Below, piece after piece: positions 4,472 through 42,537 of a DNA stretch of 47,309 nt. A model generated the notes under the pieces. It did not search any database. It saw only the letters and a list, made by a program, of their open reading frames with translations, and was not told where the DNA came from. Source of the DNA: Thermoplasmata archaeon (GTDB taxonomy: Archaea > Thermoplasmatota > Thermoplasmata > RBG-16-68-12 > JAGMCJ01). The translations under genes were made by a program, and so were the position numbers. Each line of letters begins with the position of its first letter. The stretch's first letter is position 1. The stretch covers positions 1 through 47,309 of the forward strand of contig JAGMAI010000020.1 in the NCBI GenBank assembly GCA_023130895.1, in the 5' to 3' direction.

Positions 4472-4707
4472 GCAACACTCAGTAAATACCGAGCTGTCTG
4501 ATTCTCACTGAGACCGTTCCGTACGTCCAGATTCATCCTCCACTGAGGCTAGGAAGACTCAGGTTGTCATAAGGAAGGTTCTATGCGAGCCTTTGCCCAC
4601 AACTGGTCTTGACCTGACCTCCTCAAAGATGTTCTCTGAAGAGGAGAATACTACAGGTCTCCGAAATCGTTGAGTTCTATTGACATATTCAGTCAGTGGG
4701 GAGAGGA

Positions 4708-5943: not shown

Positions 5944-6208
5944 GCAAGCCGTGTTCGGTTTTCCCGTGTAGGCAAGATAATCTTGACCGTTGGAACAGGT
6001 GATGCTATCCAAACCAAGAGACACTTTTCGGGGGCTCTCGAAGGCAGTTTGTGATGACTGGCGTTAGCGTCCCCAATGTTGCAGTGCGTCAATATGAATC
6101 GTTGGAGGAATGTCGCGCTCCTCATTGTTCTGCGACACTTCCTCTATGGTTCGAAATATCTTTGACGTCTTCGAAATCCTTATCTGGCATTAGTCTCTTA
6201 GTTGACTT

Positions 6209-13711: not shown

Positions 13712-14641
13712 TTACGAAACTAGGGGAATATCCGCAGATTGTCTGATGGAGGCGCTCTTCTTGGACAGTATCCATTGCGCCAGTTCGTGGAATCCCCTCT
13801 CCACGTTCATTCCGGTTTTGGCGCTAGTGAAGATGAACGGAGAGCCGATCCTTCGCGAATACTTTGCCACATCCTTCCTGTCAAAATCGAACTGATCCTC
13901 CAGGTCCGTCTTGTTGGCAACGATGCACACAGGCACCTTTCCCGTCGCATGGAAGATGGAAGACTTCCAGCCCTCCAGGCTTCTCAGAGTCTCGTTTCGC
14001 GTGACATCGCAGACGGCGAGGATGCCCTGCATCCCCTTGAAATGGGACTCCATGTAGAGGTCTGCGATGCTCCTCTTCCCCATTATGTCCCAGACCATCA
14101 TGACGACTCTCATTTGCTTTCCTCTCGGGAGGGGAACCAACATCTCCTTCTTTGACACCTTTGCTCCTATCGTCTTCACGTACTTGTCATCGAACTGATC
14201 CAAGACGAATTTTCTGATGAGACTGGTCTTCCCCACCCCCGCATCACCAACAATGCCCACCTTGAACTTGGCAACTTCCCACTTGCGGTTCCTCGTCTCT
14301 TCTGCGGCCTCTGAGACCATCCTCATCTCGTAGTCCATTCCTGCAACCTTCAAGAGGTACTTCATCTTGGTGATTGCCGAGTGAACTGCCCGTATCATGT
14401 TCTCGTCTTTCGACAGAGCGTCCTTGGGAACAGTAAGAATGAGCCTGTCTTCCTCGAGTATCCAACCCTCGGATTCCAGGACATTCGAGAGCATCGCCAG
14501 TCTCATGTCCTCTCGTTTCACGAGAACCTCGAAGGTTATCCTTCCCTCCTTGCTCGTCTCTCTCAGATCACGGCCCCTGGGAATCCCGTCCAGCAGTATC
14601 TTCTTGCTCCCAGGTTTCATTGACATCACCGATGGCATCAC
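13712..14641 (-). CDS. Ras-superfamily (Rab/Ras-like) small GTPase with an N-terminal extension of about 125 aa
   Basis: G1 is GDAGVGKTS, G2 is YVKTIG, G3 is WDIMGKR, G4 is NKTD and G5 is TSAKTG, all in canonical order and spacing. GTG at 14641 or ATG at 14638 could be the start. Confidence 0.85.
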   Translation of the reverse strand: MMPSVMSMKPGSKKILLDGIPRGRDLRETSKEGRITFEVLVKREDMRLAMLSNVLESEGWILEEDRLILTVPKDALSKDENMIRAVHSAITKMKYLLKVAGMDYEMRMVSEAAEETRNRKWEVAKFKVGIVGDAGVGKTSLIRKFVLDQFDDKYVKTIGAKVSKKEMLVPLPRGKQMRVVMMVWDIMGKRSIADLYMESHFKGMQGILAVCDVTRNETLRSLEGWKSSIFHATGKVPVCIVANKTDLEDQFDFDRKDVAKYSRRIGSPFIFTSAKTGMNVERGFHELAQWILSKKSASIRQSADIPLVS

Positions 14642-29930: not shown

Positions 29931-32477
29931 TCAGTAGAATATCCCACAGAGATCATTGATTGCTCTACGGAAATCGTCTACGACTTCTGATATGTCTTCA
30001 CGCTTCACTCTTATTTCGTGTACGCTACCACTCCGGCTAGGTGAGAGTCTCTCAGAATGAGAACGAATTCTCTCTACGTCATCTTCGCCAAGAGACCAGA
30101 CATGACTCATGAAATCCTGGGTGATCTTGTCTTCGGATTCAACATCATAAGTCTCGTATTTCGATATCATTGCATTCCACTGACCAACTCCGATGGAATG
30201 ATGCCTGTAGAACTTCCATGGAAACAGATTTCGGACTCGATGATCGGTAATGCTTTTCACTTCTTCTTCTTTGAGGGGGCCCACTCTTCCCATGAATGGC
30301 TTGCTTATCTTGTTGTCCAAGATGACTTCAAAGGCTTTGGCATAGCCCAGAATCACTCCAGAGAAGTCAGATTCTTCATGGTTTGCCAGAAGCTGGAATT
30401 CAGAAGTTTGGATGAATGTCTGAACGTTGCGCGGCAACTTCGCATATTTCGGAATCAATCTTCTGACGTCCTCCTCGCTTTTCTGCCACAGGTTCCGTTT
30501 GGTTCTTTTGAGAAGAGCAACATGAGCTTTGTCGTTCGTCTCAATCTCATCAAAGAATGCTTCAAGATCCTCCTCCACAGAAAGATCCAGCTTACGATAT
30601 CTCTCCTTGATGGCCTGCAGTTCACCCTCCAATTTCTCAACCTCGTTGCGAAGCCTTTCCTTCTCCAGTTGCTCTTGCCTGAGCTCCATTGAGAATATCG
30701 ATGAGCTAACCCAAAGATCCAAACCATCTAGAGTTGAATCCACTCTCCTCCTCAGCTTCCTACATTTCTTGGAGATGAACCTCAGGAAGCCCAGATCCTT
30801 CTGCATCTGAGCTTCTCTCTCTATCTGGAACCCGCCGTAGAGAAGGGACCTTTCAGGTCGGTCATATCTCTCGAACCATTCTGCAGCCCATTCACATCCT
30901 TTGCCTTCTTTGCCCAGAGTGAAATAAGCTAAAGAAATCTCCACAAACGCATTGATATACTGGAGCGTCACCTCATTGTTTGCGACGAACTTTTCCAGCG
31001 TTTTGATACACTTCCTTAACTCACCCGCATTTGCATAACATACGCCGATGAAGTACTCGGGTGCCACACCCTCGATTTCTGCATTTTTCCTCGCGTAGTA
31101 GACTGCTTCGTCGAGGTCAAGATGCTCTTTGATGTTCATATCGGAGTAGAATTCAGACAGCTTTCCGTATCCTCCGGGGTACTCAGGGAATCTCTCAATG
31201 ATCTCCTCCAGTACCGATACATGCTTTGGATAGTTCTTCTTGTGGAAGTAGTACTGAGAGAGTAGTAGAAGATAATTGTAGTGGCCATATTCGTCCTTCT
31301 CTTGTTCTCCTTTCAAGTATGTCTTGTCGTAGTAGTCAAGAAGGAACTTCGCGAATTCTACATCGACAACGAAGGTTTTGTGAGCCAAAGCCAGAACGTG
31401 CGGTTCCTCCAAAGGTGTTACGATTTCCTCTAGATGCTTTCTTATTGTATCCTTGGCTTTTACAGGGTCCATTATGAAGAGTGCATCGCAGTAGTTCAAG
31501 AAGTATCTTGAATCCCTTCCAGACTGATGATAGGCCTTCTCCAAGAACCCAGTGCCTTCCGGGATGTTTCCTTCGGCGACCTTGGCAATGCCGAGATTCA
31601 TCTTCAGGTATGGATCCTCATCGATTTCTTCATCAGTGTATTCTTGGCTCAGGAATTCGATGATGTCTCTGAACTTGTTGTTCAGCACTTTCGCTTGAAG
31701 ATAATACTGGGGAATTATCGACTCGTCTTTGAAATCGTCCACTATCGTCTCGACGATGGATTCGGCCTTCTCATAGTCGTATTCCATAAGGGACCGGTCA
31801 ATGAGTGTGACGAAACTCAGCAAGAGGACGTTTCTAGCAACCTTCTTCTCGAGTACCGACTTGAGGGCCATTTCATATACTTTCTTGAAGACGTCCTCGA
31901 AATCCTTTCGACGAGAATCGGACATGAGATACTCCGCGACTTCGGAACCTCCTCTGCCTTCTTTCTTGGAGAATTCCATGGTTCTTCGTATGAAGTCCTT
32001 GTCCACATTCTTGAATCGCTCCAGGCTTTCTGGTTCCAATCTGCCATATCTCGGTTGGCCAGCGAAGACCGCTGGATCGAGACAAAGAATCTCTGTCTGG
32101 GAGAATTCTGTCTGGAGTCTGAATTGATACAGAGTCTGAGAATAGAGAAGGTACAGATCCAGAAGCCGCTGTTTTCTCTTTCCTTTGGAGTTCTCGATGA
32201 GCTGTTGTACGTGAGTCAGAAGCAGCTCCAAATCCAGATGTGGCATTAGCTCTGAAGCGAATTCGTATGCTCCTGTCTCACGGATGAATATTGTGGAGAA
32301 TACGTTCTTGTAGAAGTCCGGTCTTTCTCCACAAAGCCAATCAAGAATAGACTCCCGTCCCTCATCCTTGGCTTCTCGCAGGTCTTGCGATAGGAACAGA
32401 CCTATGTAGTAGTCTTCTTTCGACCTGAATTCTTTTTCGAGATAGCGAATCGCCTTCTCGTGATCCTGACGTCTCAT
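29931..32477 (-). CDS. TPR-like / coiled-coil protein with a possible C-terminal HEPN-like domain
   Basis: 848 aa from the ATG at 32477. The N-terminal two thirds are helical-repeat, Tyr/Leu/Glu-rich and TPR-like. A coiled coil follows (LRQEQLEKERLRNEVEKLEGELQAIKERYRKL). The C-terminus has ILGYAKAFEVILDNKI and SRSGSVHE (R-x4-H). Confidence 0.55.
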   Translation of the reverse strand: MRRQDHEKAIRYLEKEFRSKEDYYIGLFLSQDLREAKDEGRESILDWLCGERPDFYKNVFSTIFIRETGAYEFASELMPHLDLELLLTHVQQLIENSKGKRKQRLLDLYLLYSQTLYQFRLQTEFSQTEILCLDPAVFAGQPRYGRLEPESLERFKNVDKDFIRRTMEFSKKEGRGGSEVAEYLMSDSRRKDFEDVFKKVYEMALKSVLEKKVARNVLLLSFVTLIDRSLMEYDYEKAESIVETIVDDFKDESIIPQYYLQAKVLNNKFRDIIEFLSQEYTDEEIDEDPYLKMNLGIAKVAEGNIPEGTGFLEKAYHQSGRDSRYFLNYCDALFIMDPVKAKDTIRKHLEEIVTPLEEPHVLALAHKTFVVDVEFAKFLLDYYDKTYLKGEQEKDEYGHYNYLLLLSQYYFHKKNYPKHVSVLEEIIERFPEYPGGYGKLSEFYSDMNIKEHLDLDEAVYYARKNAEIEGVAPEYFIGVCYANAGELRKCIKTLEKFVANNEVTLQYINAFVEISLAYFTLGKEGKGCEWAAEWFERYDRPERSLLYGGFQIEREAQMQKDLGFLRFISKKCRKLRRRVDSTLDGLDLWVSSSIFSMELRQEQLEKERLRNEVEKLEGELQAIKERYRKLDLSVEEDLEAFFDEIETNDKAHVALLKRTKRNLWQKSEEDVRRLIPKYAKLPRNVQTFIQTSEFQLLANHEESDFSGVILGYAKAFEVILDNKISKPFMGRVGPLKEEEVKSITDHRVRNLFPWKFYRHHSIGVGQWNAMISKYETYDVESEDKITQDFMSHVWSLGEDDVERIRSHSERLSPSRSGSVHEIRVKREDISEVVDDFRRAINDLCGIFY

Positions 32478-32623
32478 GGTCGTCTTCCTCTTTTTGCAGG
32501 GTGTCTTGCCAGGCGAGCGAGTACGTTGGCTATAAATGTAATCCTCGCGTGTTGCTGATTCTGGGGAAATGGACCTGTGCCAAGCCTGTATACAGGCACT
32601 GCTCAACCTACGTCGCCGGAGGC

Positions 32624-32999
32624 ATGAACATCACAGCCGCCATTACCCTCCCAACGGGATTCATTGCGGGTGCTGATGTCTACTACGTCCCAGAGAGGCC
32701 TATTGACGGTGGAGAATCGGGAATCGAGGACTTAGTGGTTGAGCTGCCTGTGCCGAGGGTCACCTGGGAAAGCCTCCGGGAGACTCATAAAACGATTCTG
32801 AAGGCCATTCTGAATGAAGGCGGGTCCTTAGAAGCTCCAAGGGGTAAGGCTGGCAGATATGCTGTCTACGACCCCTCAGAACGTCTCCTATCATCTGAGA
32901 GCCCTGGAGTCCAAGGGTCTTGTGGAAATCACCGAGCACCGCAGGGCAAAAACAGTTGTCCTGAGCAGCACTGGGCGGCTTTTCGCAAGGATATTCTAG
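32624..32999 (+). pseudogene. Frameshifted ArsR/TrmB-like winged-helix regulator
   Basis: One frame gives ...SLRETHKTILKAILNEGGS, ending in unrelated sequence. The +1 frame, from 32832, gives LADMLSTTPQNVSYHLRALESKGLVEITEHRRAKTVVLSSTGRLFARIF and a stop at 32997-32999. Together they form a canonical wHTH, so a 1-nt indel lies at about 32826-32850. Confidence 0.4.
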
Positions 33000-33075
33000 C
33001 ATCCTCACCGCCTGATGGAATCGCAACATGCAGATATTAGGAGGGGATAACGTCATTTGAGGTGGGAGGCAACCA

Positions 33076-33573
33076 ATGACAGAAGAACTCAGTGATGAAA
33101 GGAAGGATGAAATCAAGAGATACCTGTGGGAGAAGTTCTCGATCAAGACCGAAAACATCAGTGTGTATGACGAAACTTTCACTCACAGCACGTGTGGGAT
33201 TCCCAACAATCAGAGACTCGCGTTTCTTGGTGATCGCGTCTTTGACCTCATTGTAGCTGAGCATCTACTCAACACGCATCCCGGCTGTGTGAGTGGAATG
33301 CTCGATGGTGAGAGACAGAGAATCCACAATGAGACTGCTCAGACTGCAATGGCGAAGGAGATAGGTCTGATTGGACCCATGGTCTTCGGGAAGACCTATG
33401 AGAACATCCCGAAGGAAGAGCTTGAGAAGAACACAACGATCATGTCCGAAGCTCTGGAAGCAATGCTCGGAGCTATGTACTCCGACAAGGGGTTGGAGAA
33501 AGCGAGAGGAGTCTTAGTTGGACTCGTCCCCCAATCAAGGAATACCAATAAGCCAGGACTGAGAGTTCGTTAG
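33076..33573 (+). CDS. RNase III catalytic-domain protein without a dsRBD (Mini-III-like)
   Basis: 165 aa. The RNase III signature is NQRLAFLGDRVFDLIV (Mini-III-type LA-x-x-GD rather than LEFLGD). The second catalytic motif is MSEALEAMLGAMYSDKG. No C-terminal dsRNA-binding domain is present. Confidence 0.75.
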   Translation: MTEELSDERKDEIKRYLWEKFSIKTENISVYDETFTHSTCGIPNNQRLAFLGDRVFDLIVAEHLLNTHPGCVSGMLDGERQRIHNETAQTAMAKEIGLIGPMVFGKTYENIPKEELEKNTTIMSEALEAMLGAMYSDKGLEKARGVLVGLVPQSRNTNKPGLRVR

Positions 33574-33577
33574 GCAG

Positions 33578-36500
33578 CTAGCCTCCCTTGGATTCAACAT
33601 CAACAACGGTCTTGTCTGAAGTTTCCCATCCCTCTATCAAGACCTCCCCTTTGTGGACAAGACGGATCTTCGGATTATCTATCGGATTCTTGACTATCTC
33701 AATGCGCGGTGTGCTTCCCTTTTTCAGATTCTCAACCTTGTAGATGTAGTATTTCTTCTTGTCCTTGCGAGCTCTGTCGTATTGAGAGGGTCGAAGCTTG
33801 ATGTTGGACCTCCTTCCTTTCGAAGCCTTGATTTCGATTAGACGATCCCCTCCTTTGCCCGACGAAATCAAATCGCAACCTTCCTCATCATATTCCCTTA
33901 CGTCCATGACGTTCTCTCGGCGTTGAGATTGCTCGAACAGTCTCACGACTTCGACGGCAATGTCTTCCGTCATCCGGGACGAAAACGGAGTATATGTCGT
34001 TGAGATATCCTTCTTTCTACGCCTCTTCTGGGCCCTGGGTTTTCTTCTCCTAACTGGGATGTTTGTGGTCTTCCCTGTCTTGATGCCTTTCACGATGAAA
34101 CCGTGTATCGTCTCAATCGGGAAGACCTCCTCCTCTTTGCTCTCGGGTGTTGGTGCTTTGGGCGGTTTCGTGACGACGTCGACAACTTCACCTATCTCTT
34201 CTTCTAAATACTCCTCAGGGACCTCAGGTTCTTCTGCGGCTGTAGGGAGCTTGACCACTTGGCTCACATCCTCGACGTATTTTTTGAATACCGGGCCCTT
34301 TTCTAGTCCCCATTTCTTGATGACGATGTCGAGGTCATCTGGGTTCTGGTGCAGGTCATTGACCAAGGGCTCCAAATGAGGGCTCAAGGGTCCGAAGATT
34401 GAGGCAACACATCTTGAGAAGTCGCCTCTTGCGGCCTCAAGCCAGGGGTCGTTGTCTGCATTGGACACTGCGAGTTCTCCTCCAGACAAGAATACGGACA
34501 CGTTGCCTCTCATCCGTCGCTTTCCATCCAAGTAGTATGCCACCTTGATATTCCGTGCCGTGAAAATCCTCAGTTGCTCGAGTCTCGAGATGTTGTCCCT
34601 TTGCTCGTCGTATGAAGTGCTGAACCGGTTCTCGATGAATGCTTCAATGATCTCACAGAATTCCCTGAACTTCTCTTGATCATCCTCGTGAATGGCCTTC
34701 TTCTCAACGTATTTGGCCTTTCTTCTCTTCCTGAGGCTCCGTAGTGATTTGAAGCCGATTCTCATCAGTGATGATGAAATGGATGTTATCTCGGCATTGT
34801 ACCACAGAGTATTGACTACGTCTTTGAAGACATTATGGATTTTATCATCATCCATCAGGTAGGTCTCACTCGGCCTCGGGAATTCATCCTTCTCGGTCAG
34901 AAACACGCTTTCGTCAAGCGTCCTGAGGTCATCATCAGAGGTGGATTCGTCCTGAATCAGTCGACTCAGTCCCTCCAGGGCATAAATGATTCTCCCTTTG
35001 AGTTCTTGTTTCCTGTCGGTGGAGGCCTCTCCATACTCCTTCTTGATTCGCTCAAGGATGACTTTGTATTCCAAGAGAGCCGGAGCGCCTCTTACACCCA
35101 AGGACGTGAAGACCTTTGCGAGTGCTGTATCGTACGCTCCCTCTTGGAACAGTGGCTGATAGTGCGGTTTGAGTGAGTAGTCAATTGCCTCAGCAGCAAA
35201 GACCTGATCCCTGTGCCACCAGAGCTTCATCCTTCCTCCCACTCTTGCGGGGAGGAAGACTAGGAATTTCTTGGAGAATACATCTTCTATCGCATCTTTC
35301 AAATCACCCTCAGCCTCAGATTTCTCGATCAGATACTCATAATGTGATTCCGTTATGCGAAAACCATCCGATGGTATCTTCCGAATACTGTCCCACCGTG
35401 CTTTTGTCTCTTGCAGCCTCTTAAGCACATCCTCGGGCCTTGGCTCTTCGACGACTCCAATCTCTCGATAGAACTCCTTTGACCCGGACGGTATACGAAT
35501 GAAATCGCAGCCTGGTGGTGCTAGATGTCTGTTCCGTGTAGTGTCAACGTATACCATGGAAGGAGGTATTAGTCTTCCATCTGCAGATCTCGGGAACCAA
35601 GGTCTCCTGAGTTCTTGCAGGAGGGACGAGTCCATCTTGAAGTCACCTGGTGAGTAGTGGAAATAGAAAACCTGGACCCTTCGAAAAGGCTGGTATTTCT
35701 TCCAGTTCCTCGCAATGCTTTCACGGATCAGAACCAACTGGTGCTTCAAACGCCTTCTCTTGGCTGTGTCTTTCTCCTCGTTGTATTTCCGCACCGTCTC
35801 TGTCAACTCGGGCATTGTCCAGTCTTCAAACTCATATCCACGCGTTGAGTCGTATTCACCGGACCAATTGACGCCCGAGAAGTCTTTCTTCAGTCTTGAG
35901 TCCCATCGACTATAACGCCTATTGATACAAACCACTCGCGGAGTGTCCCAACAGCCCATTAGCTCAAAGAAATCATCCCAAGAATACGTTTTGCGTCTCT
36001 TCTTTGCCCCTGAGATCGGTATGCTGGTAAAACCACCTATGACTCTCTTCGAGAAGTACTTCCTCGATAGAAAGGGTACGTCAGTCAGACTCCGGAACTG
36101 GTTCTCGTGCAACAGTCTCCTCTTCTCACCACGTCTGTAGACCTCTACCGGTGGCAGGAAGACATTCCTCTTCTTGCCCCCCGAGTCTCTCATCTCTGCG
36201 ATTAGGAGGATTCTCGACCTGATGTCCGAAAAAATGTCCCAATCATCCGTCTTCCTAAGGCTTCTTCCATACTCGCTTCGATAGTATGATAGGTTCTCAA
36301 CGATGTACTTTGTGAAAAGAACAGCTCTCTTGTAGCTCATACGCTTTCCATCTCGCACTTCCTCGAATCTCGGCAGAATGAGTCTTGTGATGATGTGGTG
36401 TGCTTCAACCGTCCCTATTACACCGAGCGTCTCGAAGAGCCTGTGCACCTTATCGAGTCGCGGGTCGTAGTTCTTGTTCCTCTTCTGACTTCGCGATATC

Positions 36501-38119
36501 CTGAACGCTCTGTGGAGGAATATCAATTCGTGCTTGCCAAATAGCTCGGTGAAGAACGCCGTCTGTCTGTTCATGTACTGATTGGCGATTAGCCTGGGCT
36601 TTTCCGTTTTGATTGGATCCCGGGGTTGAACAAGCTCACCATTCTCGGATAGGAGAATCGGGATGTCCATCAAGCTCCTCTTGTCAAATTCATCGAGATT
36701 CTCATACACGTAAGAATAGACGGATACAAACCAATCAGGGTTGGAGGTCTTCGTCTTTATGTTCTTGCCATTACTGAAGAAGGTCTGGATATCTTCAGGT
36801 CCGAATTCATCGAGACCTAGCAGAGACAGGCTATCTCTTTCCGACTCAGTATATTCATCAGATATCGCGGCTTTGTCGCTTCCGTAGATGTCCCTGAGGT
36901 CGTCATTGTTGAGTAAATCCCACAGTTCATGAGGAAGGTTCACAGATTCTCTGGGTGTCCTGAAATCCTTGTCTCTGGTATATGATGTCCTTTTCCCTTT
37001 CAGATTCTCATAGATGTCCTCGATGTATCTGCTGAACAGCTCGTCATGACACCTGTCTTCTAGGGGAAGGAATGACATGATTCGGATTCTGAGAGCCGAG
37101 TCGGCCTTGAGGGCCTCAAATGCGTCCCCCACCAATTGCGGCAAGTGGCTCAGCAGATGCTTGTTCCAAGGGTGGTCTTCATCGATGTTGCTTCTGCCCA
37201 GTATTGGCAGGAAATCGCCCTGAACTACGAAAGCGTACCCAGTCAATCGCTCTGTCGGCAAATAGCAGAATAGCTTCTGAGGAGGGCGAGGGTCTTCGGA
37301 ACCCAGAGGGAATGCCAAAGCCATCTCGGTTTCCCTCACTTCTTCTTTTCCTGTCGGTCTTAGAATGCTCTCTGGCACGTCGATTGTCTTCTTGAACACT
37401 CTCCATCTCGATTCGCTTCCTGTGAACGAATTCCTCAGAATACCACGTCTGAGGTCGTAGGATAGGGTGTAGGTCTCTTCTTCCTCTCCTCTCCTGTCAA
37501 CGATGTAAATCCTTCTAGTTCGGTCAAGAAACAGCAATAGGTACTCCTTTGTCTCTTCTAGGAGCCTTTCAAGTACTCTGTCGCATTCCTCCTGAGATTT
37601 CGATGTCAGGACGAAAATCGCGCCCTTCTTGGAATTAAATTCTACATCCTTAGGAATTCTGTTGCAGGGCTCTGGATGATAGTAGTCATCAATCACGAAA
37701 TTGAATCTTCCGGATATTATGTGGGGGCTATCCGTCACTCTCTTAACCGACTTGAATCCGATTCCAAAGAATCCCTTTTTGTTCTTCTTTAGGCTATGTC
37801 CCGCATAACATATCGTTCTGACATCGTCTCTTGAGAACTTCCTTCCGTTGTTCGTCACAACAATCCTGGCATCCTTTTCGAAGTAGAATCTGATTTCCGT
37901 AGCTTTCTCGTCGTCAGCATTCTGTATCATTTCCAGTGCGAAATGAGAAGGTGATGAGTAGACACTCTGAGAGACGAAATCTGTCAGTCTCCTGACCAAT
38001 GGATCGTCTCGATATTTCTCATTCTCATTGGCGACCTTCCGAATGAAATCGTGGTCCCATTCCCATTCAAAGACTATTGCCTCACCCCCACACGCTTTTG
38101 GAGCGGCAAGTTGAATCAT
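33578..38119 (-). CDS. Giant sacsin-like GHKL (HATPase_c) ATPase with a C-terminal DUF3883-type PD-(D/E)xK nuclease-like domain
   Basis: 1513 aa. The N-terminus is HFALEMIQNADDEKATEIRFYF...VVTNNGRKFSRDDVRTI...KKGFFGIGFKSV...SPHIISG, the sacsin/MORC-type Bergerat fold. The C-terminus is EEGCDLISSGKGGDRLIEIKASKGRRSNIKLRPSQYDRARKDKKKYYIYKVENL, the DUF3883 pattern. No P-loop was found in the roughly 1100 aa between them. Confidence 0.8.
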   Translation of the reverse strand: MIQLAAPKACGGEAIVFEWEWDHDFIRKVANENEKYRDDPLVRRLTDFVSQSVYSSPSHFALEMIQNADDEKATEIRFYFEKDARIVVTNNGRKFSRDDVRTICYAGHSLKKNKKGFFGIGFKSVKRVTDSPHIISGRFNFVIDDYYHPEPCNRIPKDVEFNSKKGAIFVLTSKSQEECDRVLERLLEETKEYLLLFLDRTRRIYIVDRRGEEEETYTLSYDLRRGILRNSFTGSESRWRVFKKTIDVPESILRPTGKEEVRETEMALAFPLGSEDPRPPQKLFCYLPTERLTGYAFVVQGDFLPILGRSNIDEDHPWNKHLLSHLPQLVGDAFEALKADSALRIRIMSFLPLEDRCHDELFSRYIEDIYENLKGKRTSYTRDKDFRTPRESVNLPHELWDLLNNDDLRDIYGSDKAAISDEYTESERDSLSLLGLDEFGPEDIQTFFSNGKNIKTKTSNPDWFVSVYSYVYENLDEFDKRSLMDIPILLSENGELVQPRDPIKTEKPRLIANQYMNRQTAFFTELFGKHELIFLHRAFRISRSQKRNKNYDPRLDKVHRLFETLGVIGTVEAHHIITRLILPRFEEVRDGKRMSYKRAVLFTKYIVENLSYYRSEYGRSLRKTDDWDIFSDIRSRILLIAEMRDSGGKKRNVFLPPVEVYRRGEKRRLLHENQFRSLTDVPFLSRKYFSKRVIGGFTSIPISGAKKRRKTYSWDDFFELMGCWDTPRVVCINRRYSRWDSRLKKDFSGVNWSGEYDSTRGYEFEDWTMPELTETVRKYNEEKDTAKRRRLKHQLVLIRESIARNWKKYQPFRRVQVFYFHYSPGDFKMDSSLLQELRRPWFPRSADGRLIPPSMVYVDTTRNRHLAPPGCDFIRIPSGSKEFYREIGVVEEPRPEDVLKRLQETKARWDSIRKIPSDGFRITESHYEYLIEKSEAEGDLKDAIEDVFSKKFLVFLPARVGGRMKLWWHRDQVFAAEAIDYSLKPHYQPLFQEGAYDTALAKVFTSLGVRGAPALLEYKVILERIKKEYGEASTDRKQELKGRIIYALEGLSRLIQDESTSDDDLRTLDESVFLTEKDEFPRPSETYLMDDDKIHNVFKDVVNTLWYNAEITSISSSLMRIGFKSLRSLRKRRKAKYVEKKAIHEDDQEKFREFCEIIEAFIENRFSTSYDEQRDNISRLEQLRIFTARNIKVAYYLDGKRRMRGNVSVFLSGGELAVSNADNDPWLEAARGDFSRCVASIFGPLSPHLEPLVNDLHQNPDDLDIVIKKWGLEKGPVFKKYVEDVSQVVKLPTAAEEPEVPEEYLEEEIGEVVDVVTKPPKAPTPESKEEEVFPIETIHGFIVKGIKTGKTTNIPVRRRKPRAQKRRRKKDISTTYTPFSSRMTEDIAVEVVRLFEQSQRRENVMDVREYDEEGCDLISSGKGGDRLIEIKASKGRRSNIKLRPSQYDRARKDKKKYYIYKVENLKKGSTPRIEIVKNPIDNPKIRLVHKGEVLIEGWETSDKTVVDVESKGG

Positions 38120-38341
38120 GATTGGACTTCATATTGTTTTCGACTTGACCACGAATGTAGCAGGGGATTCTCAGGAGTCAAGTGTGAATTGAAGTGAGAG
38201 AGGTCTTGATGAACCTGCTCCGTTCACTTCGTCTCCTGTCTGCCGTCCTTGAATTGTCGATGGGTGGGCCTTGTCTCGGAACAGGGTAGCCCTTCACGAA
38301 AACTCTAAGATGTTCAAACCGATTGGACAATCGAGGATCTC

Positions 38342-38911
38342 ATGATGAACAAGCAAGAGATGATTGAGGCAATGATGGCCTTCTTTGAGACAGGACAAGA
38401 AATCTACGGCGTTTGTCCCTGCTGCAGCGAAATCTTCAGAGTCAGCGAGATGCAGATCTTCTATGGAAAGGAGCCTCCCGTTGACTGGCTAGGCAGACTA
38501 AGAGATAGAGAAGGAAAACTCGAGGAGAGCAAGAAGCTGTTTGAACAAGATAAGAAGAGAATCATCGAGAAGGCAATCGAGCAGTCTCTCGCAATTCGAA
38601 TCGGAAAAACGCTGGAGCATATTGCACCAATCATCCCGCAGCTTGGGCACCATCCTAGCGATGTCAGAGCCTTGTTCAACCCGATTGACTACGTCGCATT
38701 CAACGGAATGTTTGAGAAGAAGGATATCGACAACATCTCGTTCATAGAAATCAAGACCGGGAAGTCATCGTTGACGACTATCCAAAGAAGAATCCGTGAT
38801 GCCATCAACGATGGACGCGTCGAATGGAAGCTGTACAACATAACAGACCTCATTGAAGATGAACTGAAGAGGTCGAATCAGGATAGTCGCATCCTGAAGG
38901 ATTTCATGTAA
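38342..38911 (+). CDS. Endonuclease related to the archaeal Holliday junction resolvase (COG4741-like), with an N-terminal CxxC and coiled coil
   Basis: 189 aa. CPCCSEIF and a coiled coil are followed by PSDVRALFNPIDYVAFNG...ISFIEIKTGKSSLTTIQRRIRDAINDGRVEW, a D...E-x-K nuclease core with the family-typical tail. Confidence 0.6.
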   Translation: MMNKQEMIEAMMAFFETGQEIYGVCPCCSEIFRVSEMQIFYGKEPPVDWLGRLRDREGKLEESKKLFEQDKKRIIEKAIEQSLAIRIGKTLEHIAPIIPQLGHHPSDVRALFNPIDYVAFNGMFEKKDIDNISFIEIKTGKSSLTTIQRRIRDAINDGRVEWKLYNITDLIEDELKRSNQDSRILKDFM

Positions 38912-38939
38912 CAGGTGCAGGTTCGCAGAAGGGTTATCC

Positions 38940-39545
38940 ATGATCGGTCGCGATGATGTGGAAAAGCGGCTTGGAACGCTGGACGCCGAGATAAGACAAT
39001 GCAATCTCTGTCCAGAAAGAGACCAGTTTCCTGCGACTTCCAGGACATTTCAGCTTGGCAGTCAGAAGAACGTCCTTTTCATTGGCAGGGACCCTGCAAA
39101 GGAAGGTTGGCGGAAGTCGGGGACAGCCTTCTTCAAGACTGACGGCAGCATGCTTCAATCAGGAAAGATCTTCAGCAATCAGCTGAAGGAAGTCGGGATG
39201 GAAATCGAAGACATCACATTCGTGGAGCTCATCAAGTGTTTTCCGGTTGGCGATAAGATGCGAAATCCCAGAAGAAGCGAAATCGAGAATTGTAGACGCT
39301 GGCTTGACCGCCAAATGGGCATTCTCAGGCCAAAGGTCATAGTTCCCATGGGAAAGGAGTGCTATGAGTTCTTCCGCAGGAAAAGAGTGAGTTCTCTCTC
39401 AGCGTGTATCGAGAGAACGGAAAGTGTGTCCTACCACGGCATTCCTGTTGTTCCGATCTTTCACCCATCTAGTGCAAATCAGAAGTGCAATTGGAGGAAT
39501 GTTGTCATTCTGAAGGGTATCATGGAGGAATTCGGAGGTGACTGA
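38940..39545 (+). CDS. Uracil-DNA glycosylase superfamily protein (family 4/5-like Fe-S scaffold, atypical motif A)
   Basis: 201 aa. Four Cys sit in the family-4 arrangement (QCNLC ... IKCFP ... x16 ... ENCRRWL). Motif A is VLFIGRDPAKEG instead of GE(A/G)PG. Motif B is VVPIFHPSS. The order and spacing of the motifs match UDG family 4. Confidence 0.7.
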   Translation: MIGRDDVEKRLGTLDAEIRQCNLCPERDQFPATSRTFQLGSQKNVLFIGRDPAKEGWRKSGTAFFKTDGSMLQSGKIFSNQLKEVGMEIEDITFVELIKCFPVGDKMRNPRRSEIENCRRWLDRQMGILRPKVIVPMGKECYEFFRRKRVSSLSACIERTESVSYHGIPVVPIFHPSSANQKCNWRNVVILKGIMEEFGGD

Positions 39546-39986
39546 TTGGTGCTTGTAATAGGTGAGGACGATCTGAGGAGAATAAGGGAAATTCTGGAAC
39601 AAGGATGGTCAGAGGAGACAGCACACAACCGTGAGGAATGGCGAAAGTCGCTGTGCAGGAGCAACGGACAGTGCTATGGTACAGCTAGGACGGTGAATCG
39701 TGTGTTTGAGTGGGAGATTATACGTATACGGGTTCCAGGGAAAGGTGTCGACCACTATTGGAATCGAATGCCCGATGGAAGAGACATTGATTTCACGTCT
39801 GACCAGTTCGGAGGTGACGGCATTCACAAAGTCGAAGATTGGCAAGGTACACTGGTAAGAAGGGGCTACAAGACCATCAATCCGCGGTTAAGGAGATATC
39901 TGAAGGTAGTCGAAGGACCTTTGAGGATATTCAAACAAGAACTGGAGTCAAGAGAACCAGGGAAAGACGAAGGAGGAAAGACATGA
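39546..39986 (+). CDS. YunG-like protein (function unknown)
   Basis: 146 aa (TTG at 39546 or GTG at 39549), abutting the UDG stop. SNGQCYGTARTV...VDHYWNRMPDGRDIDFTSDQF resembles the GQC...HYWN...D-x-T-x-x-QF pattern that I recall for YunG-family proteins. Confidence 0.4.
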   Translation: MVLVIGEDDLRRIREILEQGWSEETAHNREEWRKSLCRSNGQCYGTARTVNRVFEWEIIRIRVPGKGVDHYWNRMPDGRDIDFTSDQFGGDGIHKVEDWQGTLVRRGYKTINPRLRRYLKVVEGPLRIFKQELESREPGKDEGGKT

Positions 39987-40531
39987 ATGACATAGATGCG
40001 GCAATCAACAAGGCAAAGACCGACCTGTTTGAATACTTCTCAATGTCGCCAAGTGTGGTCTGGAAAGAAGAGGATCTGCAGTCGTACCTCTATCATCGAT
40101 TGCTGATTTACGAGCCAAGGCTGAAGAAGAGACTACATCGAGAGTTCCCAGTTGTCAGGTCGTTTAAGAATCGTGACTGGGCGGGAATGCTGGACCTGGC
40201 CATCACAGAAGAGAGCAATAGCAACTTCAGGGTTTTGGATGTCAAAGTCGAATACGCCATTGAACTGAAATTCCTGAGGAATTGGGAAACTGGGTCGAGC
40301 CCCAGAAGCCTCGCCAAGTTCGAGAAAGAGTGCAGGGAGGATGTTGGAAAGCTGAGAACGAGGGCAGTGAACTTCAATGATGATACGAAGAAGTACTTCT
40401 TCGCGCTCAGACTCACGGATGTCCGACAGACTCATGAGGTTCGGAGGATCTTCGAAGAAATGGACTGGGGCGGCATTGAGCACGGCTACATTGAGTGCTA
40501 CACTGACGGTTCAGAATCTCAAGTGCTATAA
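39983..40531 (+). CDS. Hypothetical protein with a PD-(D/E)xK-like motif
   Basis: 182 aa from the ATG at 39983, in an ATGA overlap with the upstream stop. GMLDLAITEE...VEYAIELKF gives a D...E-x-K arrangement. The ORF track extends the frame upstream to 39839. Confidence 0.45.
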   Translation: MNDIDAAINKAKTDLFEYFSMSPSVVWKEEDLQSYLYHRLLIYEPRLKKRLHREFPVVRSFKNRDWAGMLDLAITEESNSNFRVLDVKVEYAIELKFLRNWETGSSPRSLAKFEKECREDVGKLRTRAVNFNDDTKKYFFALRLTDVRQTHEVRRIFEEMDWGGIEHGYIECYTDGSESQVL

Positions 40532-40606
40532 AGAGTCCGCTCTCTTGCTCTCCTCAGAATCGTCGCACAGGCAGTGTTAAAGCGATAAAGGAGCTATACC
40601 GCGGGG

Positions 40607-40894
40607 ATGAAGGACAAGAAACCGAGGTATGGAGAGAAAACCATTGAACTGACTGTAAGGTTCTGGACGAATGACATCTCGAGGAAGGAAAACCACATCG
40701 TTCCGAGGGTCTGCTGGGAGCATGGCATGATTACTCTGAAGAAGAACGAGAGCCACGGCCTGGCAGTGAAAAGGAAACCCTTCAAATCGATTGCGCACCT
40801 ATCTAGGGCCGTAGAAGAACTCCTCAAGGCTTCCAACGTGGAAGTCCTTCACGGACGATATACCAAACCTCTGTATTCTGACAAGTTGAAGTAG
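40607..40894 (+). CDS. Hypothetical small protein (95 aa)
   Basis: ORF with an ATG start. No motif was recognised. Confidence 0.35.
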   Translation: MKDKKPRYGEKTIELTVRFWTNDISRKENHIVPRVCWEHGMITLKKNESHGLAVKRKPFKSIAHLSRAVEELLKASNVEVLHGRYTKPLYSDKLK

Positions 40895-41045
40895 TAGTCA
40901 GAAGTTCACGTACAACAGTGCTCCACTCCAGAGGCAACTAGAAGTAGTTGGGCGGGGGGGGACGTCAATGGAGATTCGTAGATTGGAGAGTGTGCCAGAA
41001 AGGGACATATGGCGATCGTAGCTAGCTGTCCTCGGGACCCTTTCT

Positions 41046-42335
41046 CTAGCGCGGAAGCCTAAGGACCACCTTCTCGTTCGGAAGAGATGTGACGAACTCC
41101 CATCCTTCCTCAAGATACCCCTCAATCTCATCAATTGAGATTGCCTTCTGACTGCAGTTGCTGTTCCCCTTTGTGCTGAGCAGTCGGTCACGAACAGTTT
41201 CCCTGAGCTTGTCTTCTGCCAGATCAAGAAGATCGTCCTTCTCCATCTCTTCATCGGTGAAACCAGCCATCCGAAGCAATTCTGCACGAAACATTCGCTT
41301 CAGGTCTTCTCCTTTGGGAGACTCGGGCACTGTGGTCTGGAGGTGCTCTTGGCTTTTTCTGTATGCTTCCCGCATGTCGTCTATTATGTGAGGCGGAAGT
41401 CTGTTCTTGTTCGTGGTATATGTGTGCTCGATATCACCTTTATGTCCCATCCACAGTGTACGATAGTCCCTGAGGACGAGACCCTTTGATTCCGCGAACA
41501 TCAGTTGGGTGTCGAAATAGGAACGCAACACGTAGGGCCGCCAAGAGAAGCCTGCCTTTCTTATCGACCTTCGAATGGTCTCGCTCACCTTCGTTGTGGA
41601 AATGAACCTCTTGGCTGCTGTCTTCGGCTTGAGTATCGAAGAGCGTCTGCCAAACTTCTCGCCCTCCCTGAGCCTCTCTTCCAGGTAGTCCTTCAGATAA
41701 TCACAGCCCTCTTCGGAGAGGAAGGTGATGTACTTGTGTCCTGCCTTGCTGAGCTCTGGTCTCACGACAATCATTGCTGGTACCTCTGAGAACTCTATAG
41801 TGTCTCCTTTGATCTGGAGTTCGGGGATGTCGCCTATCCGAAGACCATCGTCACCCAGATATGCCCCCAATGACTGGAGCCTCAACCCTGAATGAGCCAC
41901 CAAAACACAAGCAACTCTGCTCTTCTTGTCTCCAGAGAGGAGTATCTTCTTCAGTTCTTGGGGCGTTGGAACTCTCTCATCCTTCAGTGTTGGGAACGTG
42001 TTTCCGCCTCTAATCTTTATCTTCTTCGTCAGGACCTTGTCATTGTGTGTAAGCCACGATTTGAGCGCTCGCATTATCGATCCGATATAGGAACCCGCCT
42101 TTCCCTCTCCTTCGAGTTCGCTTACATAGTCTAGCAGGATCGCATAGAGTTCCTTCTCGCTCTTCCCAGCGAGTTCCTTGGGAGTCGTCTCTTGTCTCAC
42201 ACAGAAGTTCCCGAGACGTCTGAGGTAAACATCAGCTGTTACAACAGAACCCCTAGCGTTGTTATCATACCACCTTCGGACTTCCGGGTCCTCGAGCAGT
42301 TCTCTGTAACGCAGTCCCCTTGCTTTTTTCGTCAC
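41046..42335 (-). CDS. Tyrosine recombinase / integrase
   Basis: 429 aa. The catalytic-core pattern is VAHSGLRLQSL (Arg I), SKAGHKY (Lys), RPYVLRSYF (Arg II), LWMGHKG (His) and IEHTYT (Tyr nucleophile). The gene lies next to the tRNA 3' end. Confidence 0.85.
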   Translation of the reverse strand: MTKKARGLRYRELLEDPEVRRWYDNNARGSVVTADVYLRRLGNFCVRQETTPKELAGKSEKELYAILLDYVSELEGEGKAGSYIGSIMRALKSWLTHNDKVLTKKIKIRGGNTFPTLKDERVPTPQELKKILLSGDKKSRVACVLVAHSGLRLQSLGAYLGDDGLRIGDIPELQIKGDTIEFSEVPAMIVVRPELSKAGHKYITFLSEEGCDYLKDYLEERLREGEKFGRRSSILKPKTAAKRFISTTKVSETIRRSIRKAGFSWRPYVLRSYFDTQLMFAESKGLVLRDYRTLWMGHKGDIEHTYTTNKNRLPPHIIDDMREAYRKSQEHLQTTVPESPKGEDLKRMFRAELLRMAGFTDEEMEKDDLLDLAEDKLRETVRDRLLSTKGNSNCSQKAISIDEIEGYLEEGWEFVTSLPNEKVVLRLPR

Positions 42336-42385
42336 AAGACGTAATCGGCGTCCTCATATTAGAGCGTTTCGAACCGCTATCAGTA

Positions 42386-42458
42386 TGGGCTCAGCCGGAT
42401 TCGAACCGGCGACCTTCTCTGTGTGAGAGAGACGTCATAACCGCTAGACCATGAGCCC
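42386..42458 (-). tRNA. tRNA-Val: tRNA-Val (anticodon CAC)
   Basis: The reverse complement reads GGGCTCA TG GTCT AGCGGTTA TGAC G TCTCT CTCACAC AGAGA AGGTC GCCGG TTCGAAT CCGGC TGAGCCC A. It forms a 73-nt cloverleaf with a 7-bp acceptor stem, 5-bp anticodon and T stems, a T-loop TTCGAAT, and anticodon CAC at positions 34-36. No CCA is encoded. Confidence 0.85.
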
Positions 42459-42537
42459 TTACGTCCGACAAAAGGGGAGGGGATTTCTTAAAGCTAACGG
42501 AAGAGGCCCCTCAGAAGCTATATCTAACCAGCTGCCC

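What the first reader, a model, noticed from the sequence alone, without database searches (positions are those of the whole stretch)
38342..40531. Four-gene operon: Hjc-related nuclease, Fe-S UDG-like glycosylase, YunG-like protein and PD-(D/E)xK-like protein
The four plus-strand genes are joined by a 28-nt spacer, a direct stop/start abutment (39545/39546) and an ATGA overlap (39983-39986). These junctions strongly suggest one transcript. Three of the four products are predicted DNA-acting enzymes: a COG4741-type resolvase-like endonuclease, a UDG-superfamily glycosylase, and a D...E-x-K protein. The cluster lies between the giant GHKL-DUF3883 gene and the integrase. Glycosylase-based anti-phage defence has been described recently (for example Brig1, which acts on glucosyl-hmC DNA). 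A glycosylase that creates abasic sites in modified or uracil-containing invader DNA, coupled to nucleases that cut at them, would be a coherent mechanism. I do not recognise this gene combination as a described system. An alternative explanation is a repair or replication module of the integrated element.
Basis: inference. Interest (0 to 1): 0.7.

Follow-up and report, generated by a model that had tools for sequence, protein, structure and literature searches.

The report
Composite archaeal glycosylase–nuclease gene cluster
Four tightly packed DNA-enzyme genes in a Thermoplasmata archaeon's defence island are three separate evolutionary units, and only one pairing recurs elsewhere: an atypical uracil-glycosylase-like enzyme with a YunG-family protein, which is a plausible but untested candidate for glycosylase-based antiviral defence.

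Summary
Four plus-strand genes at 38342-40531 have the stated junctions. Their products are a PF10107 nuclease (G1), a family-4-like Fe-S UDG-superfamily protein (G2), a YunG protein (G3) and a small PD-(D/E)xK-type protein (G4).

The reading as one conserved four-gene system does not hold. In three relatives, G1 sits directly behind an RNase III-like gene and has no G2-G4 downstream. In this window a Tiamat gene (TmtA) lies between that pair. Homology to relatives breaks exactly in the 28-nt G1|G2 spacer.

G4 stands alone in at least eight loci. It follows YunG only in a few close relatives.

G2 and G3 are the only obligate pair. They are adjacent in every G2-type locus that has downstream DNA. 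They are fused in one Thermoplasmata contig and in two CPR bacteria.

G2 is not a standard uracil enzyme. Motif A is GR[DE]PA, and the uracil-reading Asn is an invariant Glu, as in the defence glycosylase Brig1.

YunG has an invariant Cys/His/Asp set and no characterised relative.

Most loci lie among restriction or defence genes. The best reading is a Brig-like glycosylase with an accessory enzyme, by analogy with Brig3-BapA. This is inferred, not shown.

The parts
32501..33040 (+). CARF/wHTH-like ORF (179 aa). It is the first gene of a conserved trio with the RNase III-like gene and G1.
   Evidence: PADLOC CARF3--CARF, E 2.3e-9. DNA homology to L014 1152-1495, whose product carries HFX_2341_N and MarR/HTH domains.
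33076..33573 (+). RNase III-like gene (165 aa), the conserved upstream partner of G1 in relatives.
   Evidence: Pfam Ribonucleas_3_3, E 2e-17. It lies directly upstream of G1 homologues in L012, L014 and L015.
33578..38119 (-). TmtA (Tiamat-type GHKL/NOV_C giant protein, 1513 aa), lying between the RNase III-like gene and G1.
   Evidence: PADLOC TmtA, E 1e-102. Pfam SACS, NOV_C and HATPase_c. It is absent between the two genes in L012, L014 and L015.
38342..38911 (+). G1: Endonuc_Holl (PF10107/COG4741) PD-(D/E)xK nuclease, with P-I-D at residue 114 and E-I-K at residue 136.
   Evidence: Pfam E 3.7e-26. Motif positions. Homologues P0036-P0040 are 67-74% identical.
38912..38939 (.). The 28-nt G1|G2 spacer, which is the junction between two blocks of different ancestry.
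   Evidence: Homology to the G1 loci ends at 38912 (L012). Homology to the UDG loci begins at 38952-38979 (L004, L007).
38940..39545 (+). G2: divergent Fe-S UDG-superfamily glycosylase. Features: motif A G49-R-D51-P-A, stacking residue F64, E96 in place of the uracil-reading Asn, H175-P-S, and Cys 21/24/100/118.
   Evidence: Pfam UDG, E 2.4e-20. Below the NCBIfam cut-offs. Alignments to 1ui0 and 4zbx. Family conservation.
39546..39986 (+). G3: YunG-family protein with invariant C43, H70, N73, D82 and Q87. It is the obligate partner of G2-type UDGs.
   Evidence: Pfam YunG, E 8.3e-19. Conservation over 121 sequences. Adjacency or fusion to G2-type UDGs.
39983..40531 (+). G4: small PD-(D/E)xK-type nuclease (182 aa) that overlaps G3 by ATGA. 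Most of its homologues stand alone.
   Evidence: Invariant E54, D71 and E94xK96. AF2 model pLDDT 94. Foldseek best matches NucC, SduA and Cas4. Gene contexts.
40607..40894 (+). orf95: an unassigned small ORF on the same strand, 75 nt after G4, with no terminator in between.
   Evidence: No hit in Pfam, NCBIfam, PADLOC or PHROGs. No homologue in the related loci. No T-run.
41046..42335 (-). Tyrosine integrase.
   Evidence: Pfam Phage_integrase, E 6e-7. NCBIfam XerA-like, below cut-off.
42386..42458 (-). tRNA-Val(CAC), the probable integration hot spot that bounds the variable region.
   Evidence: ARAGORN. No att-like repeat of the tRNA region was found elsewhere in the window.

Best explanation
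The cluster is a mosaic inside a defence island of a Thermoplasmata archaeon. It is not one ancestral four-gene system. It contains three units.

(1) G1 is an Endonuc_Holl PD-(D/E)xK nuclease. Its conserved partners are the upstream RNase III-like gene and a CARF/wHTH gene. Here a Tiamat gene (TmtA) separates them.

(2) G2+G3 is the only conserved module. G2 is a family-4-derived Fe-S UDG-superfamily glycosylase. It has a family-1-like carboxylate in motif A (GR[D/E]PA) and a Glu in place of the uracil-reading Asn. G3 is a YunG-family protein with an invariant Cys-His-Asp set, and it is translationally coupled to G2.

(3) G4 is a small, usually solitary PD-(D/E)xK nuclease that joined YunG in one sub-lineage.

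Inferred mechanism. G2 flips out and excises a non-uracil base from invading DNA, most likely a modified pyrimidine of the cytosine type. This creates abasic sites that block replication, as Brig1, Brig2 and Brig3 do. YunG acts as an accessory enzyme on the modified base or its adduct, analogous in role to BapA with Brig3. It would either widen the substrate range or process the product. The neighbouring nucleases G1 and G4 may cut the damaged DNA, but nothing shows that they depend on the glycosylase.

Shown: gene order, domain identities, the active-site substitutions, and the co-occurrence and fusion pattern. Inferred: the substrate, the defence role, the chemistry of YunG, and any cooperation with the nucleases.
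For: Decomposition into three units:
- G1 homologues (69-74% identity) lie about 85 nt behind an RNase III-like gene in L012, L014 and L015, with unrelated genes downstream.
- DNA homology to those loci covers window 32655-33508 and 38292-38912 and skips TmtA.
- In one MAG the G1 homologue and the UDG-YunG-G4 trio are on different contigs.
- The close relative L001 shares 29931-32997 (87%) and 39527-40512 (75%). In between it carries HNH+GmrSD instead of RNaseIII-like+TmtA+G1+G2.

UDG-YunG linkage:
- The two genes are adjacent in the window, L007, L096 and L097.
- They are fused in P0027 (L004/L005) and in the CPR loci L053 and L062.
- The fused CPR UDG domains share the Glu, a K-DG insertion and H[PS]SGAN with the G2 family.

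G2 is not canonical:
- It scores 63 bits against a 250-bit family-4 cut-off.
- E96 aligns to Tth N80 and Sto N82, and F64 aligns to Sto F55.
- R50, P52, A53, F64, E96, H175 and four Cys are invariant in 10 family members, and residue 51 is always Asp or Glu.
- L062 carries a second UDG with the canonical Asn next door.
- Brig1 uses Glu E147 at this position (PMC11078745).

Precedent for a glycosylase with an overlapping accessory gene: Brig3-BapA (PMC13160076).

Defence context: TmtA; GmrSD, Mrr and SNF2/MmeI; ScoMcrA_N, RadC and type I RM; DndB and an MTase; DpnI x2, NERD and SACS; Mrr.

Rarity: no G2-type hit by pattern in GTDB species representatives, IMG/VR or JGI metagenomes.
Against: - No functional data exist.
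- PADLOC has no model for G1-G4.
- In L004 the UDG-YunG fusion follows an RNase HII gene by 26 nt, which would fit a repair role.
- YunG is a broad family (529 representative clusters). Most members are solitary in genomes and have no UDG neighbour. Its role need not concern modified DNA.
- The YunG model has no fold match to any characterised enzyme, so the thiol-hydrolase idea rests on the residue pattern alone.
- Only about 13 G2-type clusters are known, all from metagenomes and mostly on short contigs, so the co-occurrence statistics are small.
- No G2 structure was predicted and no Brig sequences were available for direct comparison.
- BapA, as its authors describe it, is not YunG-like.
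Confidence: 0.5

Rival explanations
1. All four genes form one dedicated defence system: the glycosylase makes abasic sites in modified or uracil-containing invader DNA, and the two nucleases (G1, G4) cut there.
For: The spacing is tight, there are no terminator-like T-runs, and internal SD-like motifs are present. Three products have intact catalytic motifs. The cluster lies in a defence island.
Against: The four families do not co-occur in any other locus examined. G1 is linked to the RNase III-like gene instead. G1 and the G2-G4 trio are on separate contigs in GCA_023130085.1. G4 is alone in at least 8 loci. UDG-YunG occurs without G1 or G4 in L004, L097 and L062. The G1|G2 spacer is a homology breakpoint.
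Confidence: 0.1
2. G2-G3 is a specialised housekeeping base-excision-repair pair. It removes a spontaneous lesion (for example a deaminated or oxidised base) from the cell's own DNA and happens to lie in variable regions.
For: G2 keeps the family-4 Fe-S scaffold typical of archaeal repair UDGs. In L004 the fusion sits 26 nt after RNase HII, a repair/replication enzyme. YunG is widespread as a chromosomal gene in actinomycetes.
Against: The G2 type is rare and patchy, with no pattern hit in 185,579 species-representative genomes. Its neighbours differ in every locus and are mostly restriction/defence or toxin-antitoxin genes. A canonical-type UDG sits beside the fusion in L062. The base-reading Asn and motif A are altered.
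Confidence: 0.2
3. The genes belong to an integrated mobile element at tRNA-Val and serve the element. They would act in replication or repair of its DNA, or in counter-defence or host takeover, given that YunG domains occur in polyvalent proteins of phages and conjugative elements.
For: An integrase and tRNA-Val lie 0.5-1.9 kb downstream. YunG is fused to ART-PolyVal, an Acb1-like 2H phosphoesterase with ChaB, and GNAT. It occurs in three IMG/VR contigs and one BFVD protein.
Against: No att repeat or element boundary was found in the window. G2-type UDG and G4 are absent from IMG/VR by pattern search. Viral YunG loci have no UDG. Related loci L001, L004 and L007 have no integrase within 7-10 kb. 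There are no PHROG hits for G1, G3 or G4.
Confidence: 0.15

Closest known systems
Brig1 / Brig2 (single-gene UDG-superfamily defence glycosylases; PMC11078745; bioRxiv 10.1101/2025.10.29.685425)
   Same: G2 has the UDG-superfamily fold and lies in defence islands. Its base-reading Asn is replaced by Glu, as in Brig1 E147. The aromatic stacking residue is kept (F64 here, Y121 in Brig1). G2 is predicted to be monofunctional and to generate abasic sites.
   Different: G2 keeps the four Fe-S cysteines of family 4. It is archaeal. It is always paired or fused with a YunG protein. No Brig sequence was available to compare, and no activity or phenotype is known.
Brig3-BapA two-gene operon (PMC13160076)
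   Same: A UDG-superfamily glycosylase is followed by an overlapping or abutting accessory gene of previously unknown function, inside a defence island. This gives a tested precedent for an accessory enzyme that prepares the glycosylase's substrate.
   Different: BapA is described as two beta-barrel domains with catalytic D101 and more than 252 residues. YunG is an alpha/beta domain of about 115-145 residues with invariant Cys/His/Asp. The two partners do not look related. Brig3 flips the base out with N225. The substrate here is unknown.
Family 4 uracil-DNA glycosylase (UDGa; T. thermophilus 1ui0, S. tokodaii 4zbx)
   Same: These are the best sequence matches (E about 3e-13). G2 shares the four-Cys Fe-S pattern, the HPS motif B and the stacking Phe.
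   Different: Motif A is GR[DE]PA, not GE[AG]PG. Asn80/82 is replaced by Glu. There is a 6-residue K-DG insertion. G2 scores far below the NCBIfam family-4 cut-offs.
NucC and other small PD-(D/E)xK defence nucleases (for G4); COG4741/PF10107 Endonuc_Holl (for G1)
   Same: G4 has the E...D...ExK catalytic signature and the alpha-beta-beta-beta core. G1 is a clear PF10107 member.
   Different: G4's similarity to NucC is weak (E 9e-3, TM 0.48). No cyclic-nucleotide system is adjacent to it, and it is mostly a solitary gene. G1's conserved neighbour is an RNase III-like gene, not the glycosylase.

Membership tests
Family 4 UDG (UDGa) | Score above the curated family cut-off (NCBIfam NF040953 at 250 bits; TIGR00758 at 125.3 bits) | tested here: not met
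   63.4 and 59.7 bits
Family 4 UDG (UDGa) | Motif A GE[A/G]PG | tested here: not met
   G49-R-D-P-A53 aligns to GEGPG/GEAPG of 1ui0 and 4zbx. GR[DE]PA is found in all 12 G2-type sequences.
Family 4 UDG (UDGa) | Asn that reads the uracil Watson-Crick face (Tth N80, Sto N82) | tested here: not met
   E96 aligns to that Asn in both HMMER alignments. E96 is invariant in A4. The canonical outlier P0034 keeps the Asn.
Family 4 UDG (UDGa) | Four Cys ligands of the 4Fe-4S cluster, and motif B HP[S/A] | tested here: met
   C21, C24, C100, C118 and H175-P176-S177 are invariant.
Brig-type defence glycosylases | UDG-superfamily fold with an altered base-recognition pocket (Glu instead of Asn in Brig1) | tested here: met
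   Pfam UDG, E 2.4e-20. E96 at the Asn position. Brig1 E147 is taken from PMC11078745.
Brig-type defence glycosylases | Sequence or structural homology to Brig1, Brig2 or Brig3 specifically | not testable with these tools
   No Brig sequences were at hand. The PDB sequence search with G2 returned only four family-4 UDG chains.
Brig-type defence glycosylases | Protection against viruses with modified bases; excision of the modified base in vitro | not testable with these tools
   Requires experiments.
Brig-type defence glycosylases | Location among defence genes or mobile elements | tested here: met
   TmtA, GmrSD, Mrr, ScoMcrA_N, type I RM, DndB, DpnI and NERD lie within 10 kb in the window and in L001, L004, L006, L007 and L062.
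Brig3-BapA system | The accessory protein is a BapA homologue | tested here: inconclusive
   No BapA sequence was available. The published description (two beta-barrels, D101, Q252) does not fit the YunG model (helices 6-17, 28-33, 42-53 and 112-134 with short strands).
YunG (PF24585) | Score above the Pfam gathering threshold (27 bits) | tested here: met
   68.3 bits, E 8.3e-19. The family-invariant residues C43, H70, N73, D82 and Q87 are present.
Endonuc_Holl (PF10107 / COG4741) | Score above the gathering threshold (23.8 bits) and an intact PD...ExK motif | tested here: met
   92.3 bits. P-I-D at 114 and E-I-K at 136.
PD-(D/E)xK nuclease superfamily (G4) | Conserved acidic/Lys catalytic signature on the alpha-beta-beta-beta core | tested here: met
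   E54, D71 and E94-x-K96 are invariant in 19 sequences. They lie on strands 51-60, 65-75 and 89-96 of the model.
PD-(D/E)xK nuclease superfamily (G4) | Significant fold match to a solved member | tested here: inconclusive
   The best matches are all PD-(D/E)xK nucleases (NucC, SduA, Cas4, McrC, HamA), but E is 9e-3 or worse and TM is at most 0.48. There was no PDB profile hit.
Any catalogued defence system (PADLOC-DB 2.0) | HMM match of G1-G4 to a system component | tested here: not met
   No hits for G1-G4 at E<=1. Only the neighbour TmtA matches.

The most novel reading that the evidence does not exclude
The UDG-like/YunG pair, separate or fused, is an undescribed two-enzyme antiviral module shared by Thermoplasmata archaea and CPR bacteria. 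YunG would be a new Cys-His-Asp hydrolase fold that strips a group from a hypermodified viral base, or resolves a glycosylase-DNA intermediate. The Glu-pocket Fe-S glycosylase would then excise the exposed base. If so, this would be an archaeal instance of glycosylase-based immunity (none turned up in the literature searched here) and would assign a function to the widespread YunG domain, which is also found in phage polyvalent proteins.
Probability: 0.25. Interest if true: 0.7.

Novelty: new variant of a known kind. Interest (0 to 1): 0.5.

Why it matters
Glycosylase-based immunity (Brig1, Brig2, Brig3 and the Dag enzymes) is a recent class, and the examples read here are bacterial.

A conserved and sometimes fused pairing of a pocket-altered Fe-S UDG with a YunG protein has three uses:
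- It gives a concrete and cheap experiment: express two genes and assay modified-base oligonucleotides.
- It could extend this class of immunity to archaea and to CPR bacteria.
- It could give a first functional handle on YunG (PF24585), for which no characterised relative was found. YunG also turns up fused to ART-PolyVal, GNAT, ASCH, DUF488 and 2H-phosphoesterase domains.

The analysis also carries a general caution. Tight spacing and overlapping stops in a defence island do not prove a system, because here a 28-nt spacer is a recombination junction.

Tried and rejected
- **Attachment sites.** I searched for att repeats of the tRNA-Val/integrase region, using direct repeats with a seed of 12 and any 12-mer of 42341-42500. 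Nothing was found, so the element's boundaries cannot be set.
- **Catalogue searches.** PADLOC, NCBIfam and PHROGs gave nothing useful for G1, G3 or G4.
- **Literature on YunG.** The searches returned only authors' surnames, or nothing.
- **Wider search for G2-type UDGs.** Pattern scans found none in GTDB genomes, IMG/VR or JGI metagenomes. These scans need near-exact peptide words, so distant relatives may have been missed.
- **YunG structure.** The model had no PDB match by Foldseek (best E 2.0) and none by profile. BFVD gave one unnamed viral homologue. My suggestion of a papain- or transglutaminase-like thiol enzyme is therefore unconfirmed. A weak phmmer hit to the CMP N-glycosidase MilB (E 0.23) was dismissed as noise.
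- **Conserved neighbours of YunG.** Clustering neighbours across 80 genome loci found none beyond close species.
- **Synteny of L004 with the window through IF-2B.** Rejected: the two IF-2B proteins are only 37% identical and nothing else matches.
- **The 52-aa ORF upstream of YunG in L001.** I tested whether it is a UDG remnant. It shows no similarity.
- **First YunG scan of genome contigs.** The diverse alignment A3 failed because it has no conserved 7-10-mer. I repeated the scan with the closer alignment A5.
Full report
**Observation**

The window comes from a Thermoplasmata archaeon MAG (locus tags KAW39_). Four plus-strand ORFs occupy these positions:
- G1: 38342-38911
- G2: 38940-39545
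- G3: 39546-39986
- G4: 39983-40531

- G1 is Endonuc_Holl (PF10107, E 3.7e-26).
- G2 is a UDG-superfamily protein (E 2.4e-20).
- G3 is YunG (PF24585, E 8.3e-19).

G4 has no family hit. However, 19 homologues share invariant E54, D71 and E94-x-K96. A confident AlphaFold2 model (pLDDT 94) finds only PD-(D/E)xK nucleases at the top of a PDB fold search, and only weakly. The best is NucC (E 9e-3, prob 0.94, TM 0.48), followed by SduA, Cas4, McrC and HamA.

The plus strand has no oligo-T runs from 38100 to 41060. GGAGGTGA, AGGAGG and AGGAG motifs precede G3, G4 and the following small ORF. A single transcript is therefore plausible in this genome, but it is not demonstrated.

**Surroundings**

- The giant minus-strand gene at 33578-38119 is a Tiamat TmtA homologue (PADLOC E 1e-102).
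- Downstream lie an unassigned 95-aa ORF, a tyrosine integrase and tRNA-Val.
- No att repeat could be found.
- The left end of the window carries a type I-like methylase and specificity subunit, and an NsnB/AriA-like ATPase.

The region is therefore a defence island next to a tRNA integration site.

**Do the four genes travel together?**

They do not.

*G1.* Close G1 homologues (69-74% identity) sit in three independent contigs (L012, L014, L015). Each lies about 85 nt behind an RNase III-like gene of roughly 150-170 aa. In L014 that gene is itself preceded by an HFX_2341_N/HTH gene. Downstream of G1 the three contigs carry three different, unrelated genes.

The window has the same HTH-like ORF (32501-33040, PADLOC CARF hit) and the same RNase III-like gene (33076-33573). 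TmtA lies between that gene and G1. DNA homology to L014 covers 32655-33508 and resumes at 38335.

Homology to the G1 loci stops at 38912. Homology to the UDG loci starts at 38952-38979. The 28-nt "operon spacer" is therefore a junction between blocks of different ancestry.

In MAG GCA_023130085.1 the G1 homologue and a UDG-YunG-G4 trio are on different contigs, each with other neighbours.

*The nearest syntenic relative.* L001 shares 29931-32997 at 87% identity and YunG+G4 at 75%. In between it has HNH+GmrSD where the window has RNaseIII-like+TmtA+G1+G2.

*G4.* It follows YunG, with a conserved 4-nt overlap, only in the window, L001/L003, L007/L008 and probably one 2-kb contig. It stands alone in L006, L009, L011 and L098. 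Ten further metagenome loci also lack YunG and UDG, though only about five of them have enough upstream DNA to tell. Its neighbours there include DpnI, NERD, Mrr, PIN, MNT and a NucS_C-like nuclease.

**The conserved unit**

Every G2-type UDG locus that has downstream sequence carries YunG next to it:
- the window (abutting)
- L007 (abutting)
- L096 (overlapping, contig ends)
- L097 (5-nt gap)
- P0027 in L004/L005, where the two are one 334-aa protein

Among 80 YunG loci from species-representative genomes, two CPR bacteria also encode UDG-YunG fusions confirmed by Pfam. They are a Saccharibacteria locus (L053) and a Dojkabacteria locus (L062). Their UDG domains share three features of the G2 family: the Glu, a K-DG insertion, and H[PS]SGAN. 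In L062 a second UDG with the canonical Asn lies next door, along with an Mrr-type endonuclease. This argues that the fused enzyme is not the housekeeping uracil glycosylase.

**What G2 is**

G2's nearest solved relatives are the family-4 UDGs 1ui0 and 4zbx (E about 3e-13). It keeps the four Fe-S cysteines, the stacking Phe (F64, equivalent to Sto F55) and the HPS motif B.

It differs in several respects:
- It misses the NCBIfam family-4 cut-offs by a wide margin.
- Motif A is G-R-[D/E]-P-A, not GE[A/G]PG. From my own knowledge of family 1, this puts a carboxylate in the register of the UNG GQDPY motif.
- The uracil-reading Asn (Tth N80, Sto N82) is an invariant Glu.

The Brig1 paper reports the same Asn-to-Glu change (E147) as essential for excising glucosyl-hydroxymethylcytosine (PMC11078745). 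I therefore infer a non-uracil substrate, probably a cytosine-type modified pyrimidine. This is inference only.

**What YunG is**

It is a broad family: 529 representative clusters at E<=1e-3. Members are mostly solitary proteins of 110-170 aa. C43, H70, N73, D82 and Q87 are essentially invariant.

In the confident model (pLDDT 94) the Cys opens a helix and the His lies on the following strand. This is the arrangement seen in papain- or transglutaminase-like thiol enzymes. No PDB fold or profile match supports the idea, so it remains a hypothesis.

Fusion partners are ART-PolyVal (three cases), GNAT, ASCH, DUF488, DUF5591, HAD, TPR, and an Acb1-like 2H phosphoesterase with ChaB. These point to nucleic-acid modification and conflict biology, but not to a specific reaction.

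**Mechanistic reading**

The best precedent is Brig3-BapA (PMC13160076). There a UDG-superfamily 5hmC glycosylase and an overlapping accessory gene act together: the accessory protein deglucosylates glc-5hmC so that Brig3 can excise it.

By analogy, YunG may prepare or process the substrate of G2. BapA as described (two beta-barrels, D101) does not look like YunG. The resemblance is therefore one of architecture and logic, not of family.

G1 and G4 are intact nucleases in the same island. They could act on abasic DNA, but comparative genomics gives no reason to tie them to the glycosylase.

**Rival explanations**

- *A specialised repair pair.* In its favour are the RNase HII neighbour in L004 and the family-4 scaffold. 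Against it are rarity, ever-changing neighbours, the altered pocket, and the second UDG in L062.
- *A mobile-element function.* In its favour are the integrase and the occurrence of YunG in polyvalent proteins. Against it: G2 and G4 are absent from IMG/VR by pattern search, and related loci lack integrases.

**Verdict**

The cluster is a mosaic, and its conserved core, a Glu-pocket Fe-S UDG with YunG, is a credible new variant of glycosylase-based defence.

All functional statements are inferences from sequence, models and gene context. The sample of G2-type loci is small (about 13 clusters, mostly on short metagenomic contigs).

Noticed in passing
window 32501-33573 and 38342-38911; L012 7404-8588; L014 848-2755; L015 7462-8588: A conserved trio or pair recurs in Thermoplasmata relatives: a CARF/wHTH-like gene, a mini RNase III-like gene, and an Endonuc_Holl PD-(D/E)xK nuclease. 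It always lies at the edge of variable DNA. It could be an unrecognised RNase+DNase defence pair, possibly regulated by cyclic oligoadenylate. PADLOC has no model for the two nucleases.
   Followed up: partly
window 33578-38119 (-): A Tiamat TmtA homologue (1513 aa, PADLOC E 1e-102) lies precisely between the RNase III-like gene (4 nt from its stop) and G1. Three relatives lack it at that position, which suggests a recent single-gene insertion.
   Followed up: partly
window 915-7309: A type I-like methylase (712 aa) and specificity subunit (473 aa), which also hit the PADLOC mad2/mad5 models, are followed by an NsnB/AriA-like ABC ATPase (415 aa) and an unassigned 366-aa gene. No restriction subunit was seen. 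This may be a second defence cluster at the left end of the window.
   Followed up: no
window 8552-9516 (inside ORF 8281-9852, minus strand): Six tandem copies of a 156-nt (52-codon) unit at about 70% identity lie inside a 523-aa ORF that has no clear Pfam domain. It is a repeat protein of unknown type.
   Followed up: no
window 11872-12089 versus 15280-15495: A segment of about 220 nt is duplicated at 72-73% identity, 3.4 kb apart. One copy lies in the beta-helix/NosD-like surface-protein gene 15101-16882. The other may be a gene fragment or paralogue remnant.
   Followed up: no
window 13712-14641 (-): A Ras/Roc-family small GTPase domain (Pfam Ras, E 4e-30) is encoded in an archaeal contig, with an N-terminal extension of about 120 aa.
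   Followed up: no
L062 5338-7071 (Dojkabacteria MAG) and L053 (Saccharibacteria MAG): CPR bacteria encode a 348-aa UDG-YunG fusion that lacks the Fe-S cysteines. In L062 it lies back-to-back with a second UDG that has the canonical Asn, and near Mrr_cat, NYN, radical SAM and HD genes.
   Followed up: partly
proteins P0071, P0073, P0083, P0095, P0157, P0081, P0074, P0070 (YunG representatives): The YunG domain is fused to ART-PolyVal, to ChaB plus an Acb1-like 2H phosphoesterase, and to ASCH, DUF488, GNAT and DUF5591. It also occurs in proteins of 2825 and 3064 aa (P0088, P0149), whose other domains were not examined. The domain appears to be a recurrent module of inter-genome conflict proteins.
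   Followed up: partly
L004 9124-11005: An unusually long RNase HII (283 aa) lies 26 nt upstream of the UDG-YunG fusion on the same strand, next to DndB-like and methyltransferase genes. It is unclear whether RNase HII is functionally linked to the fusion.
   Followed up: no
L097 3-1424 and 2903-3436: In this locus a 473-aa protein with no Pfam hit overlaps the UDG start codon, and a HIT-domain protein follows YunG. The accessory genes around the UDG-YunG core therefore differ between lineages.
   Followed up: no
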